NCBI GenBank assembly: GCA_964520225.1
Contig: CAZFNV010000001.1
Span: 72,210 to 136,209, forward strand
DNA: 64,000 nucleotides
Source of the DNA: an uncultured Candidatus Saccharibacteria bacterium
Lineage (GTDB): Bacteria; Patescibacteriota; Minisyncoccia; Phycocordibacterales; UBA9973
Direction: 5' to 3'
Numbering within the stretch: position 1 is the first letter of the stretch; each line of letters starts with the position of its first letter. The notes under the pieces are model-generated. The model ran no database searches and had not been told where the DNA came from. It worked only from the letters and a program-made list of their open reading frames with translations. Position numbers and translations under genes: made by a program. This document shows, piece by piece, positions 1,875 to 39,783 of the stretch.

Positions 1875-2696
1875 CTACTGATGGTCGAAGGTCAGGGTAT
1901 ACGATCCCGCCCTCGACTGGAAGGACGTCATCCCGGGCGGGAGCGTGCCTTCCGCGAGACGGAACATCATCTCACGGTTATCGGCTTCAGCCTTGGAGAG
2001 GAGCTGATCCTGGGTCTTTCCCCAGACCCCAGACATCAACCCTCCAGGGTCGTTGCTGTGGCACAAGCCGATCACAGCGTGACCAAGTTCGTGCCGGAAG
2101 GACGAAACGTAAACCCCGTTGGGACCGAAACGAACCCTCCCACTGGTGATTAGGTTGTTGTCCACCTGAACCCAGGCAGACCCCCAGCCAGTGTAGGAAG
2201 GATCGCGGATCACGTTCACGACCCCTTGACCCTCAAGCTGACCGTAAACGAGCTCAAGGGGAACGTTAAGCTGAGCCCGAAACTCTGGACTCAAAGCGCG
2301 CTCCATGACTTCACGTTCTCCCGCCGAGAAATCCGGCGAGATAGCGATGGTCATCGGCCCCATTGGCTTCCGAAGAGGACGGACGCCCCCGTTCTCGCCA
2401 GCGCTGAGCACTCCCTTGCCACAGAACGAAAGCAGCATGGCAGTCTCGACGGAATTGGCGCCACGGATGCCCCAGAGGGGGAGCTCGCTCGGCGGGACGG
2501 AAAACAGCTCCGGCCCCACCGACACGAACTGGAACGACGAGGGCAGAGCCGCAGGCGTCGGGGTAACGGTCGACTGGGCGCCGACGACCTTGCCGGTCGT
2601 GGTGGTAGTCGTCGCCGACGGCGCGACGGGAGAGTCCCCGCCGCACGCCACGCTGATGGCCGCGAGAGCCACCAGTACGAACATCTTCTTCAACAT
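1875..2696 (-). CDS. Secreted zinc metallopeptidase lipoprotein (HELGHAVIGLCH, a metzincin-like HExxHxxxGxxH motif with an LMSG Met-turn-like segment). High-GC coding sequence that looks foreign.
   Basis: The internal start MLKKMFVLVALAAISVAC at 2696 has a lipobox and a strong SD (AAAGGAGGG) 8 nt upstream. GC3 is strongly G/C, unlike the neighbouring genes. Confidence 0.6.
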   Translation of the reverse strand: MLKKMFVLVALAAISVACGGDSPVAPSATTTTTTGKVVGAQSTVTPTPAALPSSFQFVSVGPELFSVPPSELPLWGIRGANSVETAMLLSFCGKGVLSAGENGGVRPLRKPMGPMTIAISPDFSAGEREVMERALSPEFRAQLNVPLELVYGQLEGQGVVNVIRDPSYTGWGSAWVQVDNNLITSGRVRFGPNGVYVSSFRHELGHAVIGLCHSNDPGGLMSGVWGKTQDQLLSKAEADNREMMFRLAEGTLPPGMTSFQSRAGSYTLTFDHQ

Positions 2697-2778
2697 AATG
2701 GCCCTCCTTTCAGGCCATGCTCGCGGTTGAGCCACGAGCGAACACAGAAAAATTGTGAGGTACGATGATTTCGAGATG

Positions 2779-2787
2779 ATTATACCA
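2779..2787 (-). promoter_or_regulatory. Extended -10 promoter (TGgTATAAT) ~75 nt upstream of the metallopeptidase start
   Basis: Reverse complement of ATTATACCA at 2779-2787. Confidence 0.4.
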
Positions 2788-2974
2788 CAAAACACCCCTT
2801 TTTTGCAAATTTTGTGCATAACTTTGTGGATAAGTCTGCTGGTTTGCAATTATATGTATGCTGTGATAGTATTCTAGGCGTAAGAGTCCTGCAGCAACGG
2901 GGCTTTTATTTTTTAGAAAATAAGGAGTGCAAACGACCATATTTTCTAAAACCCCGTTAAATGATTTCAAATTT

Positions 2975-8187: not shown

Positions 8188-9717
8188 AACATAACCTTAA
8201 CAATAGTTTTACTAGGCACCGGGGTGTTACTCTTTGGTGTTTTAGTCGGTTATTACCTACGCTTCATTATCGCGCTCGGCAAACGCCGATCTATTGAGAT
8301 AGACATCAAGCAAATGATGGTCAGCGCCAAAGAAGAAGCGCAGAGAATATTAGACGAGGCCAAGAAAAAGTCTGAGGAACAGTTGGCCAGCTTGCGAGAA
8401 GAAGAACGCAAGAAGGTACAGGAGTTTAAAGAAACAGAAAAAAGGCTGGTGAAGAAGGACGAATTTCTGGATGCACGTCAACTGGAAATAGACAAAGAGG
8501 TAGAGAATATAAAGCTCAAAGTAGAAGAGATAAAGAAAATCCAAGAAAAAGTCACACGAATTGAGGAAGATAAAATAAAAGAACTAGAGAGGGTGGCTGG
8601 ATTATCAGAGAGTAACGCAAAAGAAGAACTGCTAAAAGATATTCAGAGGAAATACGGAGAGGATCTGGTAACGCAGATGCAGAAGCTAGAAAGTAGCAAT
8701 GGCGAGAAGTTAGAAGCCCGAGCTAAAGAAATATTGGCGACATCTGTCCAGCGTCTAGCGGCAAGTACCGCTTCTGAGCTGATGACGACCTCGGTCGCAA
8801 TAGCCAACAACGAAATAAAGGGTAAAATAATTGGTAAAGAAGGTCGCAACATTCGAGCCTTCGAACGAGCTGCTGGTGTAGAACTCATAGTGGACGACAC
8901 CCCGGGCTCTATCGTCATATCATCCTTCGATCCAATACGCCGACAAGTTGCCCGTCTTGCTCTTGAGAACTTAATTCTAGATGGACGCATACAACCAGCC
9001 AAGATTGAGGAGCTAGTAGAAAAAGCAAAAGAAGATATAAATAAAATAATAAAAGAAAAAGGCGAACAGGCAGTCTATGAATGCGGAATATTCAACTTTG
9101 ACCCGCGCATAGTTGCCATCATTGGTCGGCTTTATTTTCGCTCGAGTTATGGACAAAACGTGCTCCAGCATTCCATTGAAGCAGCCCATATTGCTGGCAT
9201 GATAGCGGAAGAGATTGGTGCCGATGTAGCGATAGCTAAAGCTGGGGCCCTAGTACACGATATAGGTAAGGCTCTCGACCACGAAGTGCAGGGTACGCAC
9301 GTGGAAATAGGTATGCGCATACTGCAAAAGTTCGGTGCAGATGAACGCATTGTGACAGCCATGAAGAGCCACCACGAGGACTACCCATATGAAACCATCG
9401 AGGCTAGAATAGTCCAAACAGCAGATGCTATATCAGGCGGTCGCCCAGGCGCAAGACGCGACTCAGTAGAGAATTATCTAAAGAGATTGCAAGAACTCGA
9501 GGCCCTAGTGAACGCCTTCCCTGCTGTTGAGAAATCTTATGCCCTCCAAGCTGGGCGCGAGATCCGCATATTTGTCACTCCAGAGAAAATTTCTGACGCT
9601 GAAGCCAAGATGATGGCTCGTGACATAGCAGTAAAAATAGAGCAAGAGCTCAAATACCCTGGTGAAATCAAGGTTACCATGATTCGTGAGACCAGAATCG
9701 TGGAATATGCTAGGTAA
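8185..9717 (+). CDS. rny: Ribonuclease Y
   Basis: N-terminal TM, coiled coil, a KH domain (GKIIGKEGRNIRAFE) and an HD domain (HSIEAAHIAGMIAEE...VHDIGKA). Confidence 0.9.
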   Translation: MNITLTIVLLGTGVLLFGVLVGYYLRFIIALGKRRSIEIDIKQMMVSAKEEAQRILDEAKKKSEEQLASLREEERKKVQEFKETEKRLVKKDEFLDARQLEIDKEVENIKLKVEEIKKIQEKVTRIEEDKIKELERVAGLSESNAKEELLKDIQRKYGEDLVTQMQKLESSNGEKLEARAKEILATSVQRLAASTASELMTTSVAIANNEIKGKIIGKEGRNIRAFERAAGVELIVDDTPGSIVISSFDPIRRQVARLALENLILDGRIQPAKIEELVEKAKEDINKIIKEKGEQAVYECGIFNFDPRIVAIIGRLYFRSSYGQNVLQHSIEAAHIAGMIAEEIGADVAIAKAGALVHDIGKALDHEVQGTHVEIGMRILQKFGADERIVTAMKSHHEDYPYETIEARIVQTADAISGGRPGARRDSVENYLKRLQELEALVNAFPAVEKSYALQAGREIRIFVTPEKISDAEAKMMARDIAVKIEQELKYPGEIKVTMIRETRIVEYAR

Positions 9718-15522: not shown

Positions 15523-15896
15523 TAAATAAATTCACAGTAAATGCTTCCGGCGAAACGCATATCCTGAACTTGACTTCAAGTATTTTTCAAACATTAGCGC
15601 TGTTTCTTTTGACGCAAATGCGCAATACCAAACTAATTTATATTTACCATTTTTCGTAGTTTCTACTTGGCCTTGATTATGGTAAATAAGTCTATCTTTC
15701 AGATTGTTGGACTAACCAACATAATATTCTTGCTTATCTGCATTAAATAAAATATAAGTGTAGTACATATTTTTTGCCCCACTCCATCAAGATTGCGCGA
15801 GGCCACTTCGCTTTCGTGTTTTTTATTATATCAATTTCAATATAGAGTTTTGTGGTGCTTGCACCGCGAAGCTCCTGATTCGTCAGGAGCGCAGTG

Positions 15897-15915
15897 GTGC
15901 GGGATAGGAGAATCG
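15897..15915 (-). repeat. 19-nt direct repeat of the 3-prime end (T-loop/acceptor) of tRNA-Gly(UCC), followed by an encoded CCA. The other copy is the genuine tRNA 3-prime end at 16018-16036.
   Basis: GTGCGGGATAGGAGAATCG occurs twice, 121 nt apart. The upstream copy reads ...ATCCCGC-A-CCA on the tRNA strand. Confidence 0.6.
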
Positions 15916-16018
15916 GCTACTACATAGCCAGGTGCTTTTCCGTCTCACCATACTCACAAGGAAAAGCCTTTCGATTCCCTACGCAAGCAAAGCAGTTTGC
16001 TTACTATCCCTTACTCTG

Positions 16019-16089
16019 TGCGGGATAGGAGAATCGAACTCCTAACCTCAGTTTGGAAAACTGATATTTTACCATTAAACTAATCCCGC
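16019..16089 (-). tRNA. tRNA-Gly (anticodon UCC), 71 nt, CCA not encoded
   Basis: Hand-folded cloverleaf: acceptor GCGGGAT/ATCCCGC, D-stem GTTT/AAAT, anticodon stem TCAGT/ACTGA with loop TTTCCAA, T-arm AGGAG-TTCGATT-CTCCT. Confidence 0.8.
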
Positions 16090-16171: not shown

Positions 16172-17425
16172 TTATAAACTATCCTCGGGAAAACCAATAG
16201 TGTCTTTCCCCATGTACGATCTCAACACCTCAGGAATAAGAATTGTCCCGTCCTCTTGTTGGTAATTTTCCAATATAGCGATAAGTGTTCTCGAGACAGC
16301 TATTGCTGTACCATTTAGCATATGCAGAAATTCTACCTTACCGTCTTTTCTGCGAACTTTAATATTTAGATTTCTTGCCTGATAATCGGTACAGTTTGAT
16401 GTTGAAGTTACTTCACCATAATCGTTTCGACCTGGCATCCATGCCTCAATATCATATTTTCTTGCTGCAATTGCCCCAAGATCTCCTGTGCACATCTCTA
16501 AAACTCGATACGGAATATTCAATTTTTGATAAATCCTCTCCTCAAGCTCCAATAGATACTTGTGCATTGAGTCAGATTGTTCTGGAAGACAATAAATGAA
16601 CATCTCTGCTTTCGTAAACTGATGCACACGATAGAGGCCGTGAGAATATTTTCCATACGCACCAGCTTCTTGCCTGAACGCATGAGAGTAACCAATATAT
16701 TTCAATGGTAATTTATCCTCTGGAATAATCTCGTCAGCATGCAACCCAGCAATAGTGACTTCAGCGGTTGCGATTAAACCAAGATCGTGACCGTCAATAG
16801 CATAAATTTGTGCCTCGTTTCCTTTTGGTAAATATCCAGTACCTAAATAAAATCTTGATTTTGCCAGATCGGGAGTTATCACTGGCACATACCCCTCTTG
16901 AATAAGCAATTTAAATGCGTACTGCACTAAAACTAATTCGAGTAATGCCAGATCACCAAGAAGAAAGTAAAATTGTGAGCCGGCCACTTTTGCACCGCCC
17001 TCAAAGTTAAGCATGCCAAGTCCTGTTCCCAACTCAAAATGTGTTTTCGGTTTAAATTTAAAGTTGGGTTTATCGCCCCATATTCTGATTACTTTATTAT
17101 CTGTTTCTGTTTTACCAATTGGCACATTATCAAAGGGTAGGTTCGGTATACCATTAAGTAATTTAGAAACATTTTCCTTAATTTCTAAAAGATTTTTTTC
17201 AACTTTTTGAAGGGTAATCTTAATTTGTTTCGCCTCTTCTCGTTTAGTATTATCTTTTGAAAGCTGATTACGTTGACTCCGTAAATTTTCGGATTCGGCC
17301 AGCATTTTTCGATATTCTTTATCTAATGACAAAAGTTGGTCAACAATCGACGGATCGTATCCCTTTGTGGTAATTCTGCTTCTAACTAATTCTGGATTTT
17401 CTCTTACAATTTTAATGTCTATCAT
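16172..17425 (-). CDS. serS: Seryl-tRNA synthetase
   Basis: N-terminal coiled-coil arm and the class II motifs (FRQEAGAYGKYSHGLYRVHQFTKAEMF). Confidence 0.9.
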   Translation of the reverse strand: MIDIKIVRENPELVRSRITTKGYDPSIVDQLLSLDKEYRKMLAESENLRSQRNQLSKDNTKREEAKQIKITLQKVEKNLLEIKENVSKLLNGIPNLPFDNVPIGKTETDNKVIRIWGDKPNFKFKPKTHFELGTGLGMLNFEGGAKVAGSQFYFLLGDLALLELVLVQYAFKLLIQEGYVPVITPDLAKSRFYLGTGYLPKGNEAQIYAIDGHDLGLIATAEVTIAGLHADEIIPEDKLPLKYIGYSHAFRQEAGAYGKYSHGLYRVHQFTKAEMFIYCLPEQSDSMHKYLLELEERIYQKLNIPYRVLEMCTGDLGAIAARKYDIEAWMPGRNDYGEVTSTSNCTDYQARNLNIKVRRKDGKVEFLHMLNGTAIAVSRTLIAILENYQQEDGTILIPEVLRSYMGKDTIGFPEDSL

Positions 17426-17427
17426 AG

Positions 17428-18723
17428 TTATTTTATTGTAGCGAGTAATATCGCTAAACTATTATTAAATCTATCAGCTGAATCCTCTAACACTCTTTTA
17501 ATATTGACCTCCTTGACTTCCACATTACCAATCACATTTATTTTTTCGAATAGAGGGTCGAAAAATAAATGAACCTCCTCAGGATATAACTCTTTCGTGA
17601 GGTGTAAAACATTAACAAATATTGGCTTAATTTCATCATTCCAAAAATCACGAGATTCTTGCGATAACATGTTTAATTTATCTGTTATTTCAGGCACCTC
17701 ATGGAATTTATAGGGGAGACTGGAAAGGGTTTTCCATATTTTATCGTCGCTTAAAATACCTTCTAAAAGAAGAATAATGCCTGGCACCAATAGAACTGAA
17801 GGGTTGTCGAGGTATCTCATTTCGATATAATCTTTTATGCGTATGTCGGTAAAAATAGTGGAATTATGGAATATATATGAATCGAGATTGGCATTATTTA
17901 AAAAACTCCGAAAAGGTAGCTCGCCGTGCAAAACCTTATATTCCCTATTTAATACATCAAAAATCGTCGGCGCGTCTAAAACTTTCTCAATGTAATCTTC
18001 GATTGCCCAGCGACCTTTTGCCCAAAAATCATTTCCGGGATCCCCGCATCTTTTCGGATCGGTATCGCGCCATACCATCTCTCGAAAAGAACGATACTTC
18101 TGAGTCTTGTCATTATAGACATGCGAATGAGACGAAAGAGCAAGCAACAATGGCTTCAAAAAAAGCAGACGGTTAACTTTTTCTTCTAAATCATTTTTTG
18201 AATTAAAATTAAAAGTGAGTTGCAGAGAAGTGGTGTCCCTCATCATGATTCTGCCAAGGGCGCCGGTGCCTTGAAAGTAGGTATCCATTATCTGGTAACG
18301 ATCCACAGGAAGAAGCGGCACGGAATTTACATCACCAATAGGAAATAAAGAAACATCACTAAAATTTATACCAAACTTTTCGGATAAAACTCTATAGGTT
18401 TGAAGTAGGTTCAAAAACTGTTTAACTAAAGACTGGGCATTTCCACTTCGGCAAGCGCTATACTCGAGCTGAGAACCTGGCTCCAGTGTAAATCTGACTC
18501 CATCTTTTTCAAAACCTACGGTTTTTCCAAATGGTGATGTTTTAAAACCCTTTTCGTAAACCAAATAATCAAAGATTTTTCTTAATCCTGAAATTTCTTT
18601 TCCGTTGTAAAAAAATAATCTCTGCTTATTTTTATCTAGGCAGAAAACTTCATATTCAAAGCCACAAGTTTTTTCATCTTGACCGGCGGTATGGTATTTT
18701 AGAATTTGCTGATAGGTAAGCAT
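17428..18723 (-). CDS. Glutamate-cysteine ligase family 2 / carboxylate-amine ligase (GshA/YbdK-like)
   Basis: FTLEPGSQLEYS resembles the GCS2 ITLEPGGQ.ELS signature. Gene order places it downstream of an ATP-grasp ligase and a DegT aminotransferase. Confidence 0.55.
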   Translation of the reverse strand: MLTYQQILKYHTAGQDEKTCGFEYEVFCLDKNKQRLFFYNGKEISGLRKIFDYLVYEKGFKTSPFGKTVGFEKDGVRFTLEPGSQLEYSACRSGNAQSLVKQFLNLLQTYRVLSEKFGINFSDVSLFPIGDVNSVPLLPVDRYQIMDTYFQGTGALGRIMMRDTTSLQLTFNFNSKNDLEEKVNRLLFLKPLLLALSSHSHVYNDKTQKYRSFREMVWRDTDPKRCGDPGNDFWAKGRWAIEDYIEKVLDAPTIFDVLNREYKVLHGELPFRSFLNNANLDSYIFHNSTIFTDIRIKDYIEMRYLDNPSVLLVPGIILLLEGILSDDKIWKTLSSLPYKFHEVPEITDKLNMLSQESRDFWNDEIKPIFVNVLHLTKELYPEEVHLFFDPLFEKINVIGNVEVKEVNIKRVLEDSADRFNNSLAILLATIK

Positions 18724-18725
18724 GG

Positions 18726-19715
18726 CTATTTAGATTTAATCTTTTCAATTTCGGCGAGGATTAATTTATAAAATTCTTCAGCAGGGTCGCGCCCCGCTTC
18801 TTTAAAAATTTCTTCATAATAACCGGGGAACGTATTTTCATCAACAATAACCGGTTTTCCATTATGAAATATCATATCAAAACCTATAACTTCGACACCG
18901 ATTGCCTTATAAGCTCTTAACGCCTCTTCTCGACATACTTGAGGCACTTCGCAACTATCAACTTCTCCGCCTATTTCGTTTGCGTCGTATACTTTCGTGG
19001 TTCCGTTTCCCATATCAGCCAACTTATTTTCTCTTTTCCTGTAACCATACATTATCTCACCATTGATAAGAGTTACACTGACCCATTCTTCGAGTTTATT
19101 TTCATAATATCTTTCCAATAGATATGCTTTGTCTGGCGTGGTTCTTGTAGTGCTGTCAATATAATCTGTAATATCACGTAGTGCAGCAAAGCTGTTTATT
19201 AAAGTGACCCCCTTGCCGAATCCGCCACGCCGCGGCTTCAAAACCGCCGCGCCCCATTCTTTCATAACGCGTTCGATATAGTGAAGATTTTTATAATCAA
19301 ATAAAACTGTTTCAGCTACCGAACCTCCGGCTTTTTTAATTGCCAAATGAGAAGCGTATTTATCCAATCCAATTTCAAAACCCATCGGATTGATTACCAC
19401 CTTAGTATCTTTGGATAATGTCTTCAACACATCAAGATCGTAACTACCTACACTTCTATCAACCTCGCAATACCAAAAGAAAATATCTAGATCATTTAAA
19501 CAAAAATTATCTACATATATCTTACCATCCTGAATAAAAGATTTTCTGAAATTTAAATCCCAATAAATATCCGCATCCTTAATGTCATTGATCATTTTTT
19601 CTAATTTTTGCTGTGTAGCCTTAGGTAAGCGTCCAATCCCGCCAAAATGGATTGAGGCACTTTGACCTTTCGATACTGGCGCCGGTATACAAAATCCTAC
19701 TTTAATTTTTTTCAT
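18726..19715 (-). CDS. ATP-grasp ligase (RimK / glutathione-synthetase-like)
   Basis: KPRRGGFGKGV ATP-grasp glycine-rich loop, with the C-terminal Mg/ATP-binding region. Confidence 0.6.
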   Translation of the reverse strand: MKKIKVGFCIPAPVSKGQSASIHFGGIGRLPKATQQKLEKMINDIKDADIYWDLNFRKSFIQDGKIYVDNFCLNDLDIFFWYCEVDRSVGSYDLDVLKTLSKDTKVVINPMGFEIGLDKYASHLAIKKAGGSVAETVLFDYKNLHYIERVMKEWGAAVLKPRRGGFGKGVTLINSFAALRDITDYIDSTTRTTPDKAYLLERYYENKLEEWVSVTLINGEIMYGYRKRENKLADMGNGTTKVYDANEIGGEVDSCEVPQVCREEALRAYKAIGVEVIGFDMIFHNGKPVIVDENTFPGYYEEIFKEAGRDPAEEFYKLILAEIEKIKSK

Positions 19716-20908
19716 ACTTTAATATCTATTAAGGTCGAAATAATAGTTTCTGCGATATAATCAAGATGATTCTTACGAAAGAAAACAGGCAACCTCATAT
19801 CGCACGCGAATTCAAGCATTACTTTTGTTTTCTCCAATGAAGGAATTTTTCCGATATATTTCCAATTCCAAAAAACTCTCGCATTGTCTGGATGAACACC
19901 AAAAACATATAGTGAGATACCGCATCTTCGTACTCTATCCATGAATGTTTTTGTTTGACTTAGTGTTAGTCCCTCAAGATTAAATTGGATAGAATCCGGA
20001 GCCATTCTTTCTCTTGAGTCAGGTTTTGGTATTTTTATATTTTGAGACATGGAAAGCTTGCTTACTAAATAACGATAGTTTTCGTTATAGATAGCAACTT
20101 TTTTCTCTATTTCTTTAATTTGACATCTAATGATTGCCGCAGAAACATTATTCATTCTTAGGTTAAAAGCTGGAAGAATATTTTTATATCGTTCAAAAAG
20201 CTTACTGTTCATAAAATGTTTTTCGTACATCTTTTCGTATGCACCGGACAGATAAATTGCTTTTACTATAATTTCTTCATCATCAGTGACCAACAGACCT
20301 CCCTCGCCTGCATTGATAATTTTATATGATTGAAAACTATAACAGCCAACTCTTCCAAAAGTTCCCACTGGTTTGTTATTCCACAAAACGCCTAAACTAT
20401 GCGCGGAATCCTCAATAAGAATAATCCCGTTATCTTTACACAATTTAACGATACGATCCATATCCGAAGTGTGACCCCTCATATGAGACAGAAGTAAAAC
20501 TTTTGTTTCTGCGGATATTTTTTTCTTTAAATCTTCTATATCTACGACGTATCTTTTATCGCACTCAACAAGTATAGGTATTGCGCCAACATGTAGTATG
20601 GCACTAGGAACAGCGGTAAAGGTAAAGGCAGGCACTAAAACTCTATCGCCAGGCTTAACACCACAACTAATAAGCGCGAGAAACATTGCGCTGCTGCAAG
20701 AGTTAAGAGCAAGGGCATATTTAACTCCAAGATATTTCGTAAAATCTTTTTCCAGTAAGGCCGCCTCTGAGTCTTGTGGCTTATCGCCAATATATCGGAA
20801 TAAATTTCCACTTTTTAAAATTTGGCTGACCCGCACAAGAGCCTCTTTTGGTATAGGATCAGCTCGATGAAAATCACTGATAGAAAGTCTGAATTTTTTA
20901 CTTTTCAT
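19712..20908 (-). CDS. DegT/DnrJ/EryC1/StrS-family PLP-dependent aminotransferase
   Basis: IEDSAHSLG..., FSFQSYKII (PLP lysine) and the overall fold-type I pattern. Confidence 0.75.
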   Translation of the reverse strand: MKSKKFRLSISDFHRADPIPKEALVRVSQILKSGNLFRYIGDKPQDSEAALLEKDFTKYLGVKYALALNSCSSAMFLALISCGVKPGDRVLVPAFTFTAVPSAILHVGAIPILVECDKRYVVDIEDLKKKISAETKVLLLSHMRGHTSDMDRIVKLCKDNGIILIEDSAHSLGVLWNNKPVGTFGRVGCYSFQSYKIINAGEGGLLVTDDEEIIVKAIYLSGAYEKMYEKHFMNSKLFERYKNILPAFNLRMNNVSAAIIRCQIKEIEKKVAIYNENYRYLVSKLSMSQNIKIPKPDSRERMAPDSIQFNLEGLTLSQTKTFMDRVRRCGISLYVFGVHPDNARVFWNWKYIGKIPSLEKTKVMLEFACDMRLPVFFRKNHLDYIAETIISTLIDIKV

Positions 20909-21038
20909 ATTATTTCAGCAAATCTTACATGGAAACGCTCAACGCTCTGGTGATTTTCGCCCAAGTTCGAGCGCCTAGCTTATTCACTGCACTACTTTCA
21001 TCCTTCATGGATGTAGTGTATTTAATATCCGCCTTCTT

Positions 21039-21109
21039 TCGGGCCGCCGCGAATCGAACGCGGTCTAAACGGTCCCAAACCGCTTGTACTACCGGTATAC
21101 TACGGCCCG
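21039..21109 (-). tRNA. tRNA-Pro (anticodon UGG), 71 nt
   Basis: Hand-folded: acceptor CGGGCCG/CGGCCCG, anticodon stem AGCGG/CCGTT with loop TTTGGGA (G37), T-arm CCGCG-TTCGATT-CGCGG. The track ORF 20925..21116 overlaps it and is spurious. Confidence 0.8.
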
Positions 21110-21773: not shown

Positions 21774-21848
21774 TGGTGCACCCGGAGGGATTCGAACCCC
21801 CAATGACAGTTCCGAAGACTGTAGTGATATCCATTTCACCACGGGTGC
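21774..21848 (-). tRNA. tRNA-Arg (anticodon UCG), 75 nt with encoded CCA
   Basis: Hand-folded: acceptor GCACCCG/CGGGTGC perfect, D-stem GTGA/TCAC, anticodon stem ACAGT/ACTGT with loop CTTCGGA, T-loop TTCGAAT. Confidence 0.75.
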
Positions 21849-21986
21849 ATTATATAGAAAATACAACAATAATTATATATCATAATACTAAATTAGTAAA
21901 ATATCCTTGTATTATAAAGCTAAGTTTGAAATTGCAAAATCTTTATAAAAATATTATAATCTCTGTAGTCATTATAAATAATGCTG

Positions 21987-22057
21987 GCGGTCATGGTTTA
22001 GTGGTAGAACACGTCCTTGCCAAGGATGAGACGGGAGTTCGATTCTCCCTGGCCGCA
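21987..22057 (+). tRNA. tRNA-Gly (anticodon GCC), 71 nt
   Basis: Hand-folded: acceptor GCGGTCA/TGGCCGC, anticodon stem CGTCC/GGATG with loop TTGCCAA, T-arm GGGAG-TTCGATT-CTCCC. The track ORF starting at 22017 begins inside it. Confidence 0.8.
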
Positions 22058-22061
22058 CAAA

Positions 22062-23670: not shown

Positions 23671-25350
23671 TTACGAAACTTCTTGCTGATAACAAGGCTC
23701 GCAGTAGATTATTTCTTTACGGTCGGGGGAGTAAGCTGTTTCGAATTCTGTTCTACATTTTTCAGCGCCGTGAATATGATTTTTTAGATCACACATGCAA
23801 GCGCGAGCCCAGAGTTTACGTGGGTTGCGTTTTTTCATACGGTCTTGATGCCGGCACTCGAAGTCTTTGCGTGGCAGGGGAATGTTCATCCGCCTGTAAA
23901 AGGCGAGCTCACCGCGAGTAATGCGAAAATTCTTTTTACAATCTTGACACACTAGTACTTGGCTTAAAATATCATCACTAACTTCGCCTATAGTTCCCGG
24001 CATCGCATCTTCAGTAACAGTTTCTTGGCCATAGGTGCCGGTAGTTTTTTCTTGCCAATTGAACCCTCGCGCCCTGGCTTCTGCCTCGGTGATTTTGTAG
24101 TGATCGAAGCCAAGAGTCTCGTTAAAACCAAAAGGAGAGAAGGTGGAAGGGAAAAATTGGCCGTAAGTTCCATCTTTTTTCATGGTTTCGTAAATATCAT
24201 TTCTGATTTGCTCATATTCTTCTTTCGAATATTCTTTATTCAAAACCATATATTGACCCTTGCGAATAGCATTGCACCCGATAGCACTGGATAGGTTGTG
24301 ACAATTTTCAGAATACTCAACTTCATTGCAGTAAAAAATATATGCGCAATTTTTTGACTTACTGCACTGTAGCGCACCCATAATGTTGTAGCAAAGTTCG
24401 TTTTTGTAATAAAAGTTATTACAATCCATGCTGTCCATAGACTCTTCGGTGTCTGCAACATATGAACAATTTTTAGACCCAGTAGTGTCAAAAATTCTGA
24501 CGCCATCGTGGCAATTATGCATATAGTCTCCAGTGACATTATTACATTTTGTTTGTGAGGAGAACTTGAAAATACTTTTTTTCTTCAGCTCTTCAAATTG
24601 CTGTTTGGCTTTTTGTATATTTTCATAACTTGAAAAGATTTCCTGCTTTTTCTTTTCGAATTCTTCTTTGGAATATTTGACGTTTAAAATAGCGTTTGAT
24701 AAGTTGCGCCCATTTACACAAAAGATACAGTTGTTGGAGTTACGGACGTTATAACAGAAAACAAGATCAGAGGAGGATTGGCATTGCTCAGAGTACATAC
24801 ACTTGAAACATTCACGCGTATCTACACACTCATAGCATAATTCAGACTGATGTATGAAGGCGCAGTCAACACAAGATTTGCATTTCTGGATCAAGCGACT
24901 GTACATACAGTCTTCATTGTACTCAGCGGCGAAAATTAAGTAGCAGTCTTTGTTGTCAGAAGCGCCATTCGTATATTCACTACGAACAGAGTTAAGGGCC
25001 ACCAATGCAAGACGAGGAACTTTGAGCTGAAGCTCTCTGTACTGTTCAAAAAAAGGTGCGCCTTTCTTATATTCTTGCCCGAAATCTTTCGGATCCCACT
25101 TATCACTCCACCAGCACTCATGACAGTACACAGGGAATTGTGAATCCTTCGCATAGAGAGAAACAATATCCTTGGAACACATATCGCACGATCGCTTGTA
25201 AAAAGTTCTTTCGTTTCTGAAAGCCAAGCGCTTCATGGCCCTACAATCAGGACAGTCGACTGGTGGAGGAACTTTAACTTGCTCGTAAAAAATCGTATCG
25301 GCTTTTCTTATCTCAAACCCATTCCCGCAAGTTTTACAATTTTTTTGCAT
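23671..25350 (-). CDS. Large cysteine-rich protein (~60 Cys) with homologous zinc-ribbon modules at both termini and a central array of degenerate Cys-containing repeats; unknown function
   Basis: N-terminal CKTCGNGFEI...PVDCPDCRAMKRLAFRNERTFYKRSC..C and C-terminal CQDCKKNFRI...FECRHQDRMKKRNPRKLWARACMC align with each other. The centre has repeated ~14-aa NC..-type units. No signal peptide. Confidence 0.55.
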   Translation of the reverse strand: MQKNCKTCGNGFEIRKADTIFYEQVKVPPPVDCPDCRAMKRLAFRNERTFYKRSCDMCSKDIVSLYAKDSQFPVYCHECWWSDKWDPKDFGQEYKKGAPFFEQYRELQLKVPRLALVALNSVRSEYTNGASDNKDCYLIFAAEYNEDCMYSRLIQKCKSCVDCAFIHQSELCYECVDTRECFKCMYSEQCQSSSDLVFCYNVRNSNNCIFCVNGRNLSNAILNVKYSKEEFEKKKQEIFSSYENIQKAKQQFEELKKKSIFKFSSQTKCNNVTGDYMHNCHDGVRIFDTTGSKNCSYVADTEESMDSMDCNNFYYKNELCYNIMGALQCSKSKNCAYIFYCNEVEYSENCHNLSSAIGCNAIRKGQYMVLNKEYSKEEYEQIRNDIYETMKKDGTYGQFFPSTFSPFGFNETLGFDHYKITEAEARARGFNWQEKTTGTYGQETVTEDAMPGTIGEVSDDILSQVLVCQDCKKNFRITRGELAFYRRMNIPLPRKDFECRHQDRMKKRNPRKLWARACMCDLKNHIHGAEKCRTEFETAYSPDRKEIIYCEPCYQQEVS

Positions 25351-27872: not shown

Positions 27873-28838
27873 TTATTTTTTGTTATGAAACTTTTTATGT
27901 ACTTCTTTTAAATGTTTGTCAGTAACGTGGGTGTAAATCTGGGTAGTCACGATGCTGGCATGGCCGAGGAGGGCTTGCACTGATCGTATGTCTGCGCCGT
28001 TTGAGAGGAGGTCGGTAGCGAAGGAGTGGCGGATAGTGTGCGGAGTAACCTTCTTCGACATACCAGACTTCGTAGCATACTCACGCACTATCCGCTCTAT
28101 CGAGTGGCGATTAAGCGCGCCGCTCGCAGTTATTCTGTCTCTGCTTTTTTTGTTTTTATCGTTTTCACGATCAACCCGCACAAACATTGCCTCGTCCATA
28201 TCTTTTCGTTCTGCTAAATATTTTTTCACAGCGTTTCGCGCTTTTTCGGAAATGAAAACTACGCGAATCTTACTACCCTTACCTCGCACTGAAAGTTCAT
28301 CAGCATCGATGTTGATATCACGGGCGAGGGAACACAGCTCTGTCACGCGGAGCCCGGTAGAAAAAAGTAGCTCGAGTATGGCTTTGTCGCGCAGGGATTT
28401 GAGGTCATTACCATTCGGGGCCTTGAGTAGTGCTTCGAGCTCTTCGCTAGTTATAAGGTCTAGGTGTCGCTCAGGAACTTTGGCCAGCTCAATACGTTCC
28501 GCAGGAAGAGTTTTCACTTCACGGCGGGCTAGATATTTGAGAAACGCGCGAAGGGCTATCAAATAATAGTTCTGTGTTTTTTTAGAAAGGGTTTGTTCGT
28601 AGCCTACGTTGCGAGCATTAAAGCCGCGCGATTTCCAAGGCAGGTTAGATTGGCGGTTCAGCCACAGCCTAAACTCGCGCACAGTGTCATCAGTAATGCG
28701 CGCAGGTTCATCGTTCTTGATAAAGCTTAAAAAGCGCGAAAGGTAGCGGTCGTAATTCTCAACTGTTTTGAGCGACCGCCCTTTTTCTATTTCAATATAT
28801 TCCAAAAATTGAGTTTTGAGAGCTTTTAGAGATGCCAT
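27873..28838 (-). CDS. xerC: Tyrosine recombinase XerC/XerD family
   Basis: C-terminal R..HxxR...Y catalytic context (TPHTIRHSFATDLL...LLGHASIVTTQIYTH). The start is taken at the internal ATG at 28838 (MASLKAL), which is leaderless after a TATACT box. Confidence 0.8.
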   Translation of the reverse strand: MASLKALKTQFLEYIEIEKGRSLKTVENYDRYLSRFLSFIKNDEPARITDDTVREFRLWLNRQSNLPWKSRGFNARNVGYEQTLSKKTQNYYLIALRAFLKYLARREVKTLPAERIELAKVPERHLDLITSEELEALLKAPNGNDLKSLRDKAILELLFSTGLRVTELCSLARDINIDADELSVRGKGSKIRVVFISEKARNAVKKYLAERKDMDEAMFVRVDRENDKNKKSRDRITASGALNRHSIERIVREYATKSGMSKKVTPHTIRHSFATDLLSNGADIRSVQALLGHASIVTTQIYTHVTDKHLKEVHKKFHNKK

Positions 28839-28980
28839 GTAAAAAGTATAGCAGGTTGAATGTATCAAAATCTCTATTTACAAAAATAAAATTTTATTGT
28901 AAAAATTAGTGCAGATTAGCCCTTAAATAGGGTATGGTTTTTTGACAACCCTTCTAAAGGAGGACAAAAATGATCATCCT

Positions 28981-37974: not shown

Positions 37975-39420
37975 ATGAAGAGCAAGCTGACCTTCGTGGC
38001 CGCGTTCGTGCTGGTGCTGGTGGCGATCCTCGCCATCGGGTTCTGGACCTCCGAGGTCCAGGCTCAAGAGGTTGCCCCCATGGAGTGGGGGACGATCGAA
38101 GGTGCCAAGGGGACGGCCAACTTGGCCGAGCTCCAAAAGGAGATCAAACGGCTCTCTACGGAGCTTGAAGCAGTTCGTAGAGAAGTGGCCAAGCTCCCTC
38201 AGCTACAACGGGAGCTAAACGAGCTCAAAGCGAGAGGGCAAGCGCCACCATCTGCAACCGCCATCGATGCTTCGCCGCGCATGAGCGCGGCGGCTGAGAC
38301 TGTCCCGAAGGATGAGGCGCGACCTCAGGTCCTCGGCCTCACCTGGGGCCAAGCTGCTCTAGTGGCGCTGTTTCTCGGGTCGGCTTGGGCTTACTACTGG
38401 TGGAGACAACACAAGCCAGAAGAAGTAACTCCAGCAAGACCGAGCGGGATGCCTGGCCTCGCCAGCATCTTTCCGCCAGATCACACAGAAGATCCGTCGG
38501 AGACAGTCGCCTACAATCATGAAAAGAGGCGGCCGCAGTTTCCGCCCGAAAAGAAAGGATGGCGGGAAAAAATGCCTGAGGTGGTACAAAATTGGCTGAG
38601 AGCCAACTTCCCGGGTGCGGGATGGGTCATCCTCCTCGCGCTCATGGGCTCCGCCCAGGCGCAGGAGGCCGGCATCCCGCCGTGCAAGATCGGTCCGATC
38701 TTGGCTGGCGGACTCGTCACCGCTGGGCAGGAGAAGCAAATCCAGATCTCCGTCCGCGGATGCGGAGAGGTGAAGGGGATCAAAACCACAGGAAGCGCTG
38801 TCAGGTTCGGTACGGTGTCTCGTGACGGCAGCATCATCACCACTTCGGCCGTAGTGGAAGAAGATGCGTCTGCATCCACTAGGCCGATCCGTCTCGTTCT
38901 GGAGAACGGAAGCGAGGTGGAGGCTCCGAGAGGGGTCTTCATCATCGTTCGCTCGAAGAGCGAGGAAGACATCCGCCGTGAAGCTGCAGCGGCTACGGCC
39001 AAAGTCAACACGAGAGTGTCCTCCCTGCGGGAGGAGATGATCGCCGGGTTCGCCGAGCTCCGTAAGGAATCTGGCCAGCCTCGCACGGTGGTGCCCCTCG
39101 AGGCATCACCCTCACCCAACCACAAATTGGTCGAGGCAGCCCTCCCGAGCTTGCTCGAGCGGATCGACCGTCTCGAGAAGGCTCCTGTGACGACGTCCAC
39201 ACCAGTCAGCTCGGCCGAGCTGGAGGAGTTGCGAAAGGACATTCGCAAGCTCTTCCATCTCGTCGACGAATTGGCAGAGAATGACCGCCGAATCGCCCGG
39301 ATTCAGGTCGTAGACAAGAAATACTTCGGCCTGAAAAGAACACAGCGGATGTTCAGTCAGCCGACGTTTGACTCGGCCACGGCAATACAGTTGTCGGTCA
39401 GAAAGGAGACGAAGAAGTAA
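37975..39420 (+). CDS. High-GC (foreign-like) secreted membrane protein: signal peptide, coiled coil, TM, second hydrophobic segment, ~100-aa Cys-pair beta domain and a C-terminal coiled coil. Paralog of 39784..40959.
   Basis: Full-length ORF with GC-rich third codon positions and an N-terminal signal peptide MKSKLTFVAAFVLVLVAILAIG. The beta-domain motif IQISVRGCGEVKG...RLVLENGSEV...VFIIVRS aligns with the downstream gene. Confidence 0.6.
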   Translation: MKSKLTFVAAFVLVLVAILAIGFWTSEVQAQEVAPMEWGTIEGAKGTANLAELQKEIKRLSTELEAVRREVAKLPQLQRELNELKARGQAPPSATAIDASPRMSAAAETVPKDEARPQVLGLTWGQAALVALFLGSAWAYYWWRQHKPEEVTPARPSGMPGLASIFPPDHTEDPSETVAYNHEKRRPQFPPEKKGWREKMPEVVQNWLRANFPGAGWVILLALMGSAQAQEAGIPPCKIGPILAGGLVTAGQEKQIQISVRGCGEVKGIKTTGSAVRFGTVSRDGSIITTSAVVEEDASASTRPIRLVLENGSEVEAPRGVFIIVRSKSEEDIRREAAAATAKVNTRVSSLREEMIAGFAELRKESGQPRTVVPLEASPSPNHKLVEAALPSLLERIDRLEKAPVTTSTPVSSAELEELRKDIRKLFHLVDELAENDRRIARIQVVDKKYFGLKRTQRMFSQPTFDSATAIQLSVRKETKK

Positions 39421-39599: not shown

Positions 39600-39783
39600 A
39601 TTAAGATATAGTTCTTTGACTTTTTACTTCTAAAATCCCGTAGTAGATCCTAATAGCTTTAGGATTCACTACAGGATATATTCTACCTACATATATTTGG
39701 ACGAGGCAGATAGCGCCCCTAAGGGGCATTACCTGCTTCGCCCAAATTTTTTGGGTGATAGAAACTTCCTGAGGAGGAAGACC

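What the first reader, a model, noticed from the sequence alone, without database searches (positions are those of the whole stretch)
17428..20908. tRNA-flanked three-gene module: DegT aminotransferase, ATP-grasp ligase and GCS2 carboxylate-amine ligase
A PLP-dependent sugar-aminotransferase-type enzyme is followed by two ATP-dependent carboxylate-amine ligases of different folds (ATP-grasp and GCS2), in one operon with serS. The segment is bounded by tRNA-Pro and tRNA-Gly, the latter with an att-like repeat. This looks like a small accessory pathway that aminates a keto-sugar or keto-acid and then ligates amino acids or a gamma-glutamyl-Cys-like dipeptide, which is unusual for a reduced genome.
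Basis: inference. Interest (0 to 1): 0.5.

Follow-up and report, generated by a model that had tools for sequence, protein, structure and literature searches.

The report
Conserved aminotransferase, two-ligase and serS cassette
A tightly packed operon encodes a sugar-type aminotransferase, an uncharacterised ATP-grasp ligase, a rare glutamate-cysteine-ligase-like enzyme and the seryl-tRNA synthetase; it recurs as one block in several small-genome bacteria and most likely makes a glutathione-like gamma-glutamyl compound, though the product has not been identified.

Summary
Four minus-strand genes run with overlaps or 2-nt gaps between tRNA-Pro and tRNA-Gly:
- DegT, 19712-20908
- ATP-grasp, 18726-19715
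- GCS2, 17428-18723
- serS, 16172-17425

Both refutation tests fail. The GCS2 protein keeps the ligase motifs and models as a full plant-type glutamate-cysteine ligase (TM 0.80). The three genes are co-conserved in at least five lineages with different flanks.

New findings:
- The GCS2 clade is rare: 16 word-index hits among 5.8 billion proteins, and about 10 cluster representatives at 37% identity or more in an exhaustive search.
- The ATP-grasp belongs to an uncharacterised family. In 12 of 44 genomes this family sits next to a GCS2-family ligase from several subfamilies, including bona fide cyanobacterial GshA. In 4 more it sits next to an OvoA-like sulfoxide synthase.
- serS stays attached in three different gene orders.

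Best reading (about 0.4): a GshA/GshB-like two-ligase pathway makes a gamma-glutamyl(-cysteinyl) conjugate, and the aminotransferase supplies the amine.

The 19-nt tRNA-Gly repeat is real but does not bracket the module. Substrates and the reason for the serS linkage remain unknown.

The parts
19712..20908 (-). DegT/DnrJ/EryC1/StrS-family PLP aminotransferase (398 aa). It has the Schiff-base Lys196 and PLP-binding Asp167, and belongs to a distinct subfamily with no equivalog match.
   Evidence: PF01041 E 3.6e-67. Best NCBIfam hits are LegC 165 bits and PseC 156 bits, far below their cutoffs of about 420. The best PDB hit is AHBA synthase at 142 bits, with 'SFQSYK196IINAGEGG' and 'ED167SAH' aligned to its catalytic motifs.
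18726..19715 (-). ATP-grasp ligase (329 aa) of an uncharacterised family in the RimK/LysX/GshB/DcsG structural group. Its start overlaps the DegT stop.
   Evidence: Family-invariant residues include K119, K160, E201, D280, D292, N294 and the GYRK motif.
17428..18723 (-). GCS2-family carboxylate-amine ligase (431 aa), a rare divergent clade of the plant-type glutamate-cysteine ligase fold.
   Evidence: PF04107 2e-21 and TIGR01436 143 bits against a cutoff of 463. PDB plant GCL E about 1e-27. AF2 pLDDT 90, TM 0.80 to 2GWC. Invariant E23, E25, E81, E87, R142, Q168, R214, R225, R295, E301, R303, D306. Rarity.
16172..17425 (-). serS, an ordinary type-1 seryl-tRNA synthetase (417 aa). It is the last gene of the operon and part of the conserved block.
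   Evidence: TIGR00414 473 bits, above the 301 cutoff. PDB 2dq3 369 bits. Adjacency is conserved in three gene orders.
20909..21038 (-). 130-nt leader between tRNA-Pro and the DegT start. No recognised riboswitch or T-box; not conserved in relatives.
21039..21109 (-). tRNA-Pro(tgg), the upstream boundary of the block.
   Evidence: ARAGORN; Rfam 53.1 bits. In relative L001 it lies 148 nt from tRNA-Gly(tcc) with nothing in between.
16018..16089 (-). tRNA-Gly(tcc), the downstream boundary of the block, 82 nt after serS.
15897..15915 (-). Exact 19-nt copy of the 3' end of tRNA-Gly(tcc), 121 nt downstream of the original. It looks like an att-like scar or small insertion and lies outside the module.

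Best explanation
The three enzymes form one small-molecule, amide-forming pathway built around a GshA/GshB-like pair of ligases.

- Step 1 (inferred): the GCS2 enzyme activates the gamma-carboxylate of glutamate with ATP. It joins it to cysteine or a similar amine, giving a gamma-glutamyl dipeptide or amide.
- Step 2 (inferred): the ATP-grasp enzyme activates the free carboxylate of that product as an acyl-phosphate. It adds a third building block, as glutathione synthetase or glutathionylspermidine synthetase does.
- Step 3 (inferred): the DegT-type transaminase makes that third building block, or a precursor of it, by aminating a keto compound. Its gene is translationally coupled to the ATP-grasp gene in every lineage.

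The product would be a glutathione-like gamma-glutamyl(-cysteinyl) conjugate.

Shown: fold and family of each enzyme, intact catalytic motifs, operon structure, co-conservation of the genes, and the recurrent pairing of this ATP-grasp family with Glu-Cys-ligase-type genes.

Inferred: every substrate, the order of the steps, and the product.

serS is inherited with the cassette. Its role is unexplained.
For: 1. Tight operon with overlaps or 2-nt gaps. The DegT/ATP-grasp overlap is also present in L004, L056 and L059.

2. DegT-ATP-grasp-GCS2 is conserved in the window, the L001, L004 and L059 lineages, the P0006 contig and L063. Flanks differ in each case where they can be seen.

3. GCS2 keeps the E-x-E, LEPGxQxE, RY, W-DTD-R and R-K-Y-E-R-D motifs of plant GCL and models at TM 0.80 to 2GWC.

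4. The ATP-grasp family partners with GCS2-family ligases across 44 genome loci:
- A GCS2-family gene lies within 300 nt in 12 loci, in both gene orders and from several subfamilies.
- One partner is true cyanobacterial GshA (TIGR02048 628 bits, cutoff 249).
- Another is a plant-type-like GCL in Peribacteria (266 bits).
- Another group is YbdK-like.
- Four further loci have an OvoA-like 5-histidylcysteine sulfoxide synthase (360 bits) plus a GshF-type ATP-grasp.

5. In L040 a two-gene ATP-grasp+GCS2 unit is flanked by opposite-strand genes. L010 also has the adjacent pair.

Against: - No substrate is established.
- GCS2 scores 143 bits against the 463-bit cutoff of the plant-type GCL equivalog, so cysteine specificity is not assured.
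- The ATP-grasp is not a canonical GshB (NF009110 17.8 bits). By sequence it is nearest to alpha-L-glutamate ligases (MptN, RimK).
- About 19 Streptomyces-type loci, and the Nitrolancea, Bacteroidota and some cyanobacterial loci, have the ATP-grasp without any GCS2 nearby.
- L067 has ATP-grasp followed directly by serS, with no GCS2.
- No glutaredoxin, glutathione S-transferase or other glutathione-using gene was seen next to the cassette.
- The model does not explain serS.
Confidence: 0.4

Rival explanations
1. Cell-surface glycan decoration. DegT aminates a nucleotide-4-keto (or similar) sugar, and the two ligases N-acylate the amino sugar with amino acids such as glutamyl or seryl groups. 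This would resemble the amino-acid-decorated sugars of O-antigens and capsules.
For: - DegT's best named matches are sugar aminotransferases: LegC, PseC, perosamine synthase, PglE.
- In L001 and L003 an NDP-sugar epimerase/dehydratase gene is divergently transcribed next to DegT.
- There is a proven pairing of a DegT-family enzyme (Cj1437) with an ATP-grasp amidoligase (Cj1438C) in the Campylobacter capsule (PMC11800379).
Against: - No dehydratase, nucleotidyltransferase, glycosyltransferase or flippase is conserved with the cassette.
- All sugar-specific equivalog scores are less than half their cutoffs.
- Homologs about 50% identical to DegT sit beside tyrosine-catabolism genes and beside a GS-like/amidotransferase/glycerate-kinase cluster, not beside sugar genes.
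- The ATP-grasp family partners with GshA-type genes elsewhere.
- Cj1438C is a TupA-like ATP-grasp, a different family.
Confidence: 0.15
2. Serine-centred pathway in which SerRS is a working member.

- DegT interconverts serine and hydroxypyruvate, or makes a serine-like amine.
- SerRS then either shares the serine pool or supplies activated serine (seryl-AMP or Ser-tRNA) to the ligase-made scaffold.

The second role has precedents: AbmK in albomycin biosynthesis and VlmL in valanimycin biosynthesis.
For: - serS is adjacent in three different gene orders: DegT-AG-GCS2-serS, serS-DegT-AG in L056, and AG-serS in L067 with a 6-nt gap. These lineages have SerRS only 36-59% identical to the window's.
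- tRNA-Ser(gga) abuts the block in L060.
- In Rhodobacteraceae a DegT-subfamily homolog follows a glycerate 2-kinase gene.
- Cluster-encoded SerRS has documented biosynthetic roles (PMC9032320).
Against: - The SerRS is an ordinary type-1 enzyme scoring well above the housekeeping equivalog cutoff.
- In L056 it sits among housekeeping genes: MreBC, PBP2, GreA and another class II aminoacyl-tRNA synthetase (PF00152, tRNA-synt_2).
- The P0006 contig has the three enzymes followed by an opposite-strand gene of about 320 aa rather than a same-strand serS.
- There is no T-box or conserved leader.
- No transferase for aminoacyl-tRNA is present.
Confidence: 0.15
3. There is no common pathway. Unrelated genes share a compact operon, and the block is conserved by descent and local rearrangement rather than by shared function.
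For: - Small genomes often carry long operons of mixed function.
- The window, L001, L004 and L059 lineages are fairly close (DegT 74-77% identical).
- In L001 the block lies only 4 kb from the same tRNA-Pro/tRNA-Gly pair.
Against: - Flanks differ in every lineage while the block stays intact.
- The DegT/ATP-grasp start-stop overlap is conserved.
- The ATP-grasp + GCS2 pairing recurs in phyla as distant as Cyanobacteria, Alphaproteobacteria, Peribacteria and Woesearchaeota, with non-orthologous GCS2 genes.
Confidence: 0.1
4. Compatible-solute synthesis. The ligases build a small gamma-glutamyl or dipeptide osmolyte rather than a redox thiol.
For: - In cyanobacteria and in L010 the ATP-grasp gene sits with an MscS channel gene.
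- Cyanobacterial loci also carry a ProV-like ABC ATPase with CBS domains, an SBF transporter and a SAM methyltransferase.
- There is a weak match to N-acetylglutaminylglutamine synthetase.
Against: - None of these osmotic genes accompanies the cassette in the window's clade.
- The most specific partners are Glu-Cys ligase and OvoA-like enzymes.
Confidence: 0.07
5. The cassette makes a SerRS inhibitor or a toxic serine analogue, and the linked serS is a self-protection copy.
For: - Resistant aminoacyl-tRNA synthetase genes inside biosynthetic clusters are a known pattern. The serS2/abmK gene of the albomycin cluster is one example (PMC9032320).
- The block is found in different contexts in near-identical strains.
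- The block's GC content is lower than that of its surroundings.
Against: - The SerRS looks ordinary.
- There is no evidence of a second serS.
- No exporter gene accompanies the block.
- Relatives of the ATP-grasp and GCS2 genes occur without serS in many phyla.
Confidence: 0.05

Closest known systems
Two-step glutathione synthesis: GshA (plant, alphaproteobacterial or cyanobacterial GCS2-type glutamate-cysteine ligase) plus GshB (ATP-grasp glutathione synthetase)
   Same: - The GCS2 protein has the full plant-GCL fold and motifs.
- Members of this ATP-grasp family sit directly beside true gshA in cyanobacteria.
   Different: - Neither enzyme reaches the equivalog score of GshA or GshB (143 vs 463 bits; 17.8 vs 408 bits).
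- By sequence the ATP-grasp is closer to RimK and MptN.
- A DegT aminotransferase and serS are added.
- Substrates are unknown.
Amino-sugar-based low-molecular-weight thiols (mycothiol, bacillithiol) and glutathionylspermidine
   Same: The concept is the same: a cysteine-containing unit is amide-linked to an amine made by a dedicated enzyme, using ATP-dependent ligases. This comparison rests on my own knowledge of these pathways.
   Different: The enzyme families differ. MshC and BshC are CysRS-like, and no glycosyltransferase or deacetylase is present here. Nothing was tested.
Campylobacter jejuni HS:2 capsule amidation (Cj1437 DegT-family transaminase plus Cj1438C ATP-grasp amidoligase)
   Same: A DegT-family PLP enzyme makes a small amine (serinol phosphate), which an ATP-grasp enzyme then amide-links to a carboxylate (PMC11800379).
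   Different: - Cj1438C is a TupA-like ATP-grasp fused to a glycosyltransferase.
- The PDB entry I take, from memory, to be Cj1437 (7kz3, deposited under a generic PLP-aminotransferase name) matches the window's DegT with only 90 bits.
- No polysaccharide genes are present here.
Cluster-encoded seryl-tRNA synthetases (AbmK in albomycin, VlmL in valanimycin)
   Same: A serS gene is physically linked to PLP enzymes and ligases of a small-molecule pathway (PMC9032320).
   Different: Those are second, divergent serS copies in large Streptomyces genomes. Here the SerRS looks like the housekeeping enzyme, and a second copy has not been shown.
RimK / MptN / CofF alpha-L-glutamate ligases and LysX/ArgX
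   Same: These are the best sequence and structure matches of the ATP-grasp. The chemistry is the same: an acyl-phosphate is attacked by an amino-acid amine.
   Different: - Identity is 18% or less (10-18%; 9-18%).
- The first ~110 residues do not align to RimK.
- The subfamily cutoff is not reached (49 vs 143 bits).
- No S6, LysW-like carrier or cofactor genes are nearby.

Membership tests
DegT/DnrJ/EryC1/StrS aminotransferase family (PF01041) | Profile score above the Pfam gathering cutoff | tested here: met
   227.5 bits vs 19.8.
DegT/DnrJ/EryC1/StrS aminotransferase family (PF01041) | Schiff-base lysine and PLP-pyridine aspartate present, marking an aminotransferase rather than a His-containing dehydratase | tested here: met
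   K196 and D167 align with the catalytic motifs of AHBA synthase 1b9h.
Named sugar aminotransferases (LegC, PseC, WecE, ArnB, DesI, RfbH) | Score at or above the NCBIfam equivalog cutoff | tested here: not met
   The best scores are 165 vs 420 (LegC) and 156 vs 423 (PseC).
ATP-grasp superfamily | Three-domain ATP-grasp fold | tested here: met
   [not shown]
ATP-grasp superfamily | Conserved ATP/Mg2+-binding lysines and acidic/Asn residues | tested here: met
   K119, K160, E201, D280, D292 and N294 are invariant across 35 family members. Assigning them to ATP/Mg binding is by homology.
RimK family alpha-L-glutamate ligases (TIGR00768) | Score at or above the subfamily cutoff | tested here: not met
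   49.2 vs 143.4 bits. Pfam RimK is barely met, at 24.7 vs 21.
Glutathione synthetase GshB | Sequence membership (NCBIfam/Pfam GshB models) | tested here: not met
   NF009110 17.8 vs 408 bits. The A1 profile scores only 24 bits to GshAB.
Glutathione synthetase GshB | Works with a glutamate-cysteine ligase (genomic pairing) | tested here: met
   12 of 44 loci have an adjacent GCS2-family gene, including true cyanobacterial GshA.
Glutathione synthetase GshB | Ligates glycine to gamma-Glu-Cys | not testable with these tools
   Needs an enzyme assay.
GCS2 carboxylate-amine ligase family (PF04107) | Profile score above the gathering cutoff | tested here: met
   77 bits vs 21.
Plant-type glutamate-cysteine ligase (TIGR01436) | Equivalog score | tested here: not met
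   142.8 vs 463 bits.
Plant-type glutamate-cysteine ligase (TIGR01436) | Full-length fold | tested here: met
   Foldseek TM 0.80 to 2GWC over 443 columns; the next best is YbdK at 0.54.
Plant-type glutamate-cysteine ligase (TIGR01436) | Metal-, ATP- and glutamate-binding motifs conserved | tested here: met
   E23, E25, E81, E87, R142, R214, R295, E301 and R303 are invariant and align to the GTEHE, LEPGGQFE, RY and R-K-Y-E-R motifs of plant GCL. Their roles are assigned by homology.
Plant-type glutamate-cysteine ligase (TIGR01436) | Cysteine as the amine substrate | not testable with these tools
   The residue-level determinants could not be retrieved, so an assay is needed.
Seryl-tRNA synthetase type 1 (TIGR00414) | Equivalog score | tested here: met
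   473 vs 301.65 bits; PDB 2dq3 369 bits.
tRNA-targeted integrative island | Direct repeats of the tRNA 3' end bracketing the cargo | tested here: not met
   The only two copies, 15897-15915 and 16018-36, are 121 nt apart and lie outside the module.
tRNA-targeted integrative island | Integrase next to the att site | tested here: not met
   The nearest tyrosine recombinase is at 27873-28868, about 7 kb away. Next to the tRNA-Gly there is only a GIY-YIG-like remnant.
tRNA-targeted integrative island | Deviant composition and variable location | tested here: inconclusive
   - Block GC is 0.36-0.375 and GC3 0.28-0.365, vs window means of 0.43 and 0.43.
- The same tRNA-Pro/tRNA-Gly pair is adjacent in L001.
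- An identical block sits in two contexts in L059 and L060.
- However, serS is part of the block.
Anti-phage defence systems (PADLOC) | Match to any defence-protein model | tested here: not met
   No hits for the three enzymes or the UPF0102 neighbour.

The most novel reading that the evidence does not exclude
The cassette makes a previously unknown low-molecular-weight thiol or gamma-glutamyl conjugate in small-genome (candidate-phyla-type) bacteria. The ATP-grasp enzyme would represent an unrecognised, widespread class of glutathione-synthetase-like ligases that work with GshA-type enzymes. SerRS would be a genuine pathway partner, either supplying activated serine or guarding translation against a serine analogue.
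Probability: 0.15. Interest if true: 0.75.

Novelty: new variant of a known kind. Interest (0 to 1): 0.5.

Why it matters
If the two ligases do make a glutathione-like compound, organisms thought to lack such chemistry would gain a redox or protective small molecule. A family of more than 100 uncharacterised ATP-grasp proteins would also get a function. That family occurs in cyanobacteria, Streptomyces, Alphaproteobacteria, candidate-phyla bacteria and a Woesearchaeota archaeon (L036). The persistent attachment of the seryl-tRNA synthetase gene is unusual outside antibiotic clusters. It offers a concrete, testable link between translation and a small-molecule pathway. The cassette has only four genes and is easy to express, so the question can be settled at the bench.

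Tried and rejected
- Integrative island bounded by the tRNA-Gly repeat: rejected. The two 19-mers are 121 nt apart and outside the module, with no other copy in the window.
- Riboswitch or T-box explaining the serS linkage: none was found at E <= 1, and leaders are not conserved among relatives.
- Anti-phage defence: no PADLOC hit.
- Canonical GshB or RimK identity for the ATP-grasp: equivalog and subfamily cutoffs are not met.
- tRNA-dependent Ser-to-Cys/Sec conversion, with the ATP-grasp as kinase and DegT as a SepCysS-like enzyme: considered and set aside. Homologs of the ATP-grasp (47-49% identical) and of DegT (about 50% identical) occur widely without serS, in small-molecule contexts.
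- Ribosomal-peptide-modifying or LysW-type carrier system: no conserved small ORF accompanies the cassette.
- Literature searches for this gene combination, for alternative GshB enzymes and for glutathione in Patescibacteria returned nothing relevant.
- A search for residue-level determinants of cysteine binding in plant GCL gave nothing usable.
- The organism's name could not be recovered from the protein clusters.

Full report
**What is there**

Four minus-strand ORFs run head to tail:
- DegT, 19712-20908, 398 aa
- ATP-grasp, 18726-19715, 329 aa
- GCS2, 17428-18723, 431 aa
- serS, 16172-17425, 417 aa

The DegT stop overlaps the ATP-grasp start (ATGA). The next two junctions are 2-nt gaps, so this is one operon.

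tRNA-Pro(tgg) lies 130 nt upstream at 21039-21109. tRNA-Gly(tcc) lies 82 nt downstream at 16018-16089.

Domain calls:
- DegT: PF01041, E 3.6e-67.
- GCS2: PF04107, E 2e-21.
- serS: TIGR00414, 473 bits, above its cutoff.
- ATP-grasp: only a marginal Pfam RimK hit (24.7 bits), but NCBIfam MptN 4e-15 and rimK_fam 4.5e-13.

**The three enzymes look functional**

DegT has the Schiff-base lysine (K196) and the PLP aspartate (D167), both aligned to AHBA synthase. It is about equally distant (130-142 bits) from AHBA synthase, PglE, KdnA, inosose aminotransferases and perosamine synthase. It reaches less than half of any NCBIfam equivalog cutoff.

The GCS2 protein keeps every motif shared with plant glutamate-cysteine ligase. 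It models (pLDDT 90) with TM 0.80 to 2GWC over its whole length, against 0.54 for YbdK. It is still not an equivalog of plant-type GCL (143 vs 463 bits), so cysteine specificity is open.

**Co-conservation**

The GCS2 clade is rare:
- The word-index search found 16 hits among 5.8 billion proteins.
- An exhaustive HMMER scan of 1.84 billion cluster representatives found 37 at E <= 1e-30, and only about ten at 37% identity or more.

The closer relatives whose contigs could be read show these arrangements:

| Source | Arrangement |
|---|---|
| L001-3 | DegT-ATP-grasp-GCS2-serS |
| L004-6 and L012 | same |
| L059 and L060 | same, preceded by an HTH_3 gene |
| P0006 contig | DegT-ATP-grasp-GCS2, no serS |
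| L063 | DegT-ATP-grasp-GCS2, contig too short to show more |
| L011 | GCS2 alone, after a prephenate dehydrogenase gene |

Flanking genes differ in every lineage. The second refutation criterion, lack of co-conservation, is therefore also not met.

**The ATP-grasp family and its partners**

This enzyme has more than 110 homologs. They occur in candidate-phyla bacteria, Nitrolancea, Streptomyces, cyanobacteria, Bacteroidota, Myxococcota, Proteobacteria and a Woesearchaeota genome.

I fetched 44 genome loci anchored on it, clustered the neighbouring ORFs and searched them with reference proteins. DegT and serS accompany it only in the window's clade and in a Moraniibacteria genome.

A GCS2-family gene lies within 300 nt in 12 of the 44 loci, in both gene orders. 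These partners are not orthologs of one another:
- Window type: L012.
- Plant-type-like in Peribacteria: L040, 266 bits.
- YbdK-like in Alphaproteobacteria, Bdellovibrionales and Patescibacteria: L041-L046 and L049.
- A divergent archaeal form: L036.
- In two cyanobacteria (L032, L035), the bona fide cyanobacterial GshA (TIGR02048 628 bits, cutoff 249).

Four more loci (L025, L033, L047, L050) carry an OvoA-like 5-histidylcysteine sulfoxide synthase (360 bits). They also carry a second ATP-grasp resembling the glutathione-synthetase half of GshF.

L040 shows a two-gene ATP-grasp+GCS2 unit flanked by opposite-strand genes, and L010 also has the adjacent pair. Repeated, non-orthologous pairing with Glu-Cys-ligase-type and cysteine-using enzymes is the strongest functional clue. 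It points to a GshA/GshB-like two-step pathway.

About 19 Streptomyces-type loci, and several others, show no such partner. I found no paper describing this family or this gene combination. A review notes an analogous case in methanogens: stand-alone GshB-like ATP-grasp genes in synteny with GshA-like genes (PMC7278568).

**DegT**

Its subfamily is large, with 7680 hits at E <= 1e-20 and about a hundred at 49-55% identity.

Two sampled contexts are not sugar clusters:
- Oleiagrimonas: next to MarR and homogentisate-pathway genes.
- Rhodobacteraceae: after two glutamine-synthetase-like ligases, an amidotransferase and glycerate 2-kinase. That cluster resembles a gamma-glutamylation pathway for a small amine.

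Two examples are anecdotal. Together with the absence of conserved sugar-pathway genes, they make a small keto-acid or keto-alcohol substrate at least as likely as a nucleotide sugar.

The DegT/ATP-grasp start-stop overlap recurs in L004, L056 and L059. That argues the two proteins work together.

**serS**

This is the unexpected part. serS is adjacent in three architectures:
- DegT-AG-GCS2-serS in four lineages.
- serS-DegT-AG in Moraniibacteria L056, whose SerRS is only 36% identical to the window's.
- AG-serS with a 6-nt gap and no GCS2 in L067, whose SerRS is 59% identical to the window's.

The SerRS itself is ordinary. No T-box or riboswitch was found, and leaders are not conserved.

Known cases of serS inside biosynthetic clusters are AbmK and VlmL. 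There the synthetase supplies activated serine and/or immunity (PMC9032320). Whether that applies here cannot be decided without complete genomes.

**Mobility**

- The 19-nt repeat of the tRNA-Gly 3' end is real, with 0 expected by chance. Its two copies are 121 nt apart, downstream of the tRNA, so they do not bracket the module. No integrase adjoins it.
- The five genes from serS to the UPF0102 gene have lower GC (0.36-0.375; GC3 0.28-0.365) than the window mean of 0.43.
- In L001 the same tRNA-Pro and tRNA-Gly(tcc) are direct neighbours, with the cassette 4 kb away in the opposite orientation.
- L059 and L060 share an identical 5.4-kb block in two different upstream contexts. A tRNA-Ser lies at one boundary, and there is an 89-nt inverted repeat.

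The block therefore relocates as a unit, but it is not a classical att-bounded island.

**Verdict**

The finding is real and more coherent than a chance cluster.

The best-supported mechanism (about 0.4) has three parts:
- The GCS2 enzyme makes a gamma-glutamyl dipeptide or amide, most simply gamma-Glu-Cys.
- The ATP-grasp enzyme extends it at the free carboxylate.
- DegT provides the amine.

Rivals are glycan decoration (0.15), a serine-centred pathway with SerRS as participant (0.15), no shared function (0.1), osmolyte synthesis (0.07) and a SerRS inhibitor with self-resistance (0.05).

It is a new variant of a known kind of pathway, not a new kind of system. Interest is moderate (0.5). It would rise if the product proves to be a new thiol, or if SerRS takes part in the chemistry.

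Noticed in passing
window 15897-16036 (-): The last 19 nt of tRNA-Gly(tcc) are repeated exactly 121 nt downstream. The 102-nt spacer is strongly structured (the 203-nt region folds with z = -3.5), and the 5' acceptor strand can pair with either copy. The duplication is absent from the tRNA-Gly of relative L001. It could be an integration scar or a tiny insertion in the T-loop.
   Followed up: partly
window 15533-15768 (-): A GIY-YIG-nuclease-like ORF of 78 codons has an in-frame TAG straight after the 'YYVG' motif. It is either a pseudogene or a read-through gene, and it lies just downstream of the tRNA-Gly repeat.
   Followed up: no
window 1875-2849, 37975-39420, 39697-40959: Three long ORFs have 59-66% GC (GC3 0.70-0.85) in a window that averages 43% GC. 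None has a Pfam match, and long ORFs also occur on the opposite strand. Possible explanations are foreign DNA, an assembly chimera or spurious ORFs.
   Followed up: no
L059 8221-13681 and L060 8221-13620: An identical 5.4-kb block sits in two different upstream contexts in two related metagenomes. It comprises a 78-aa ORF, an HTH_3 regulator, DegT, ATP-grasp, GCS2 and serS. tRNA-Ser(gga) lies at the boundary in L060. The end of L059 (13593-13681) is an inverted copy of 8321-8409. Both contigs stop just after serS.
   Followed up: partly
L032 and L035 (cyanobacteria), L018 (Okeania), L010: Homologs of the ATP-grasp sit in operons with an MscS channel, an NmrA-like protein, true gshA and a SAM methyltransferase. 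In Okeania the neighbour is a ProV-like ABC ATPase with CBS domains. This hints at a link to osmotic stress.
   Followed up: partly
L025, L033, L047, L050: A three-gene set recurs in Myxococcota and Gammaproteobacteria: an OvoA-N-terminal-like sulfoxide synthase, a GshF/cyanophycin-synthetase-like ATP-grasp, and this ATP-grasp family. It may be an undescribed thiol-histidine-type pathway.
   Followed up: partly
L058 3204-9182 (Rhodobacteraceae): A DegT-subfamily homolog (51% identical) follows two glutamine-synthetase-like ligases, an amidotransferase and glycerate 2-kinase. The cluster looks like a gamma-glutamylation route for catabolism of a small amine.
   Followed up: partly
window 23671-25350 (-): A 559-aa cysteine-rich ORF with many CxxC pairs has no Pfam match.
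   Followed up: no
window 21774-22058: tRNA-Arg(tcg) and tRNA-Gly(gcc) lie close together on opposite strands just beyond the UPF0102 gene. With them, four tRNA genes fall within 6 kb around the cassette. The 5' end of the CCA-adding-enzyme ORF, as listed, overlaps tRNA-Gly(gcc), so its true start is probably further downstream.
   Followed up: no
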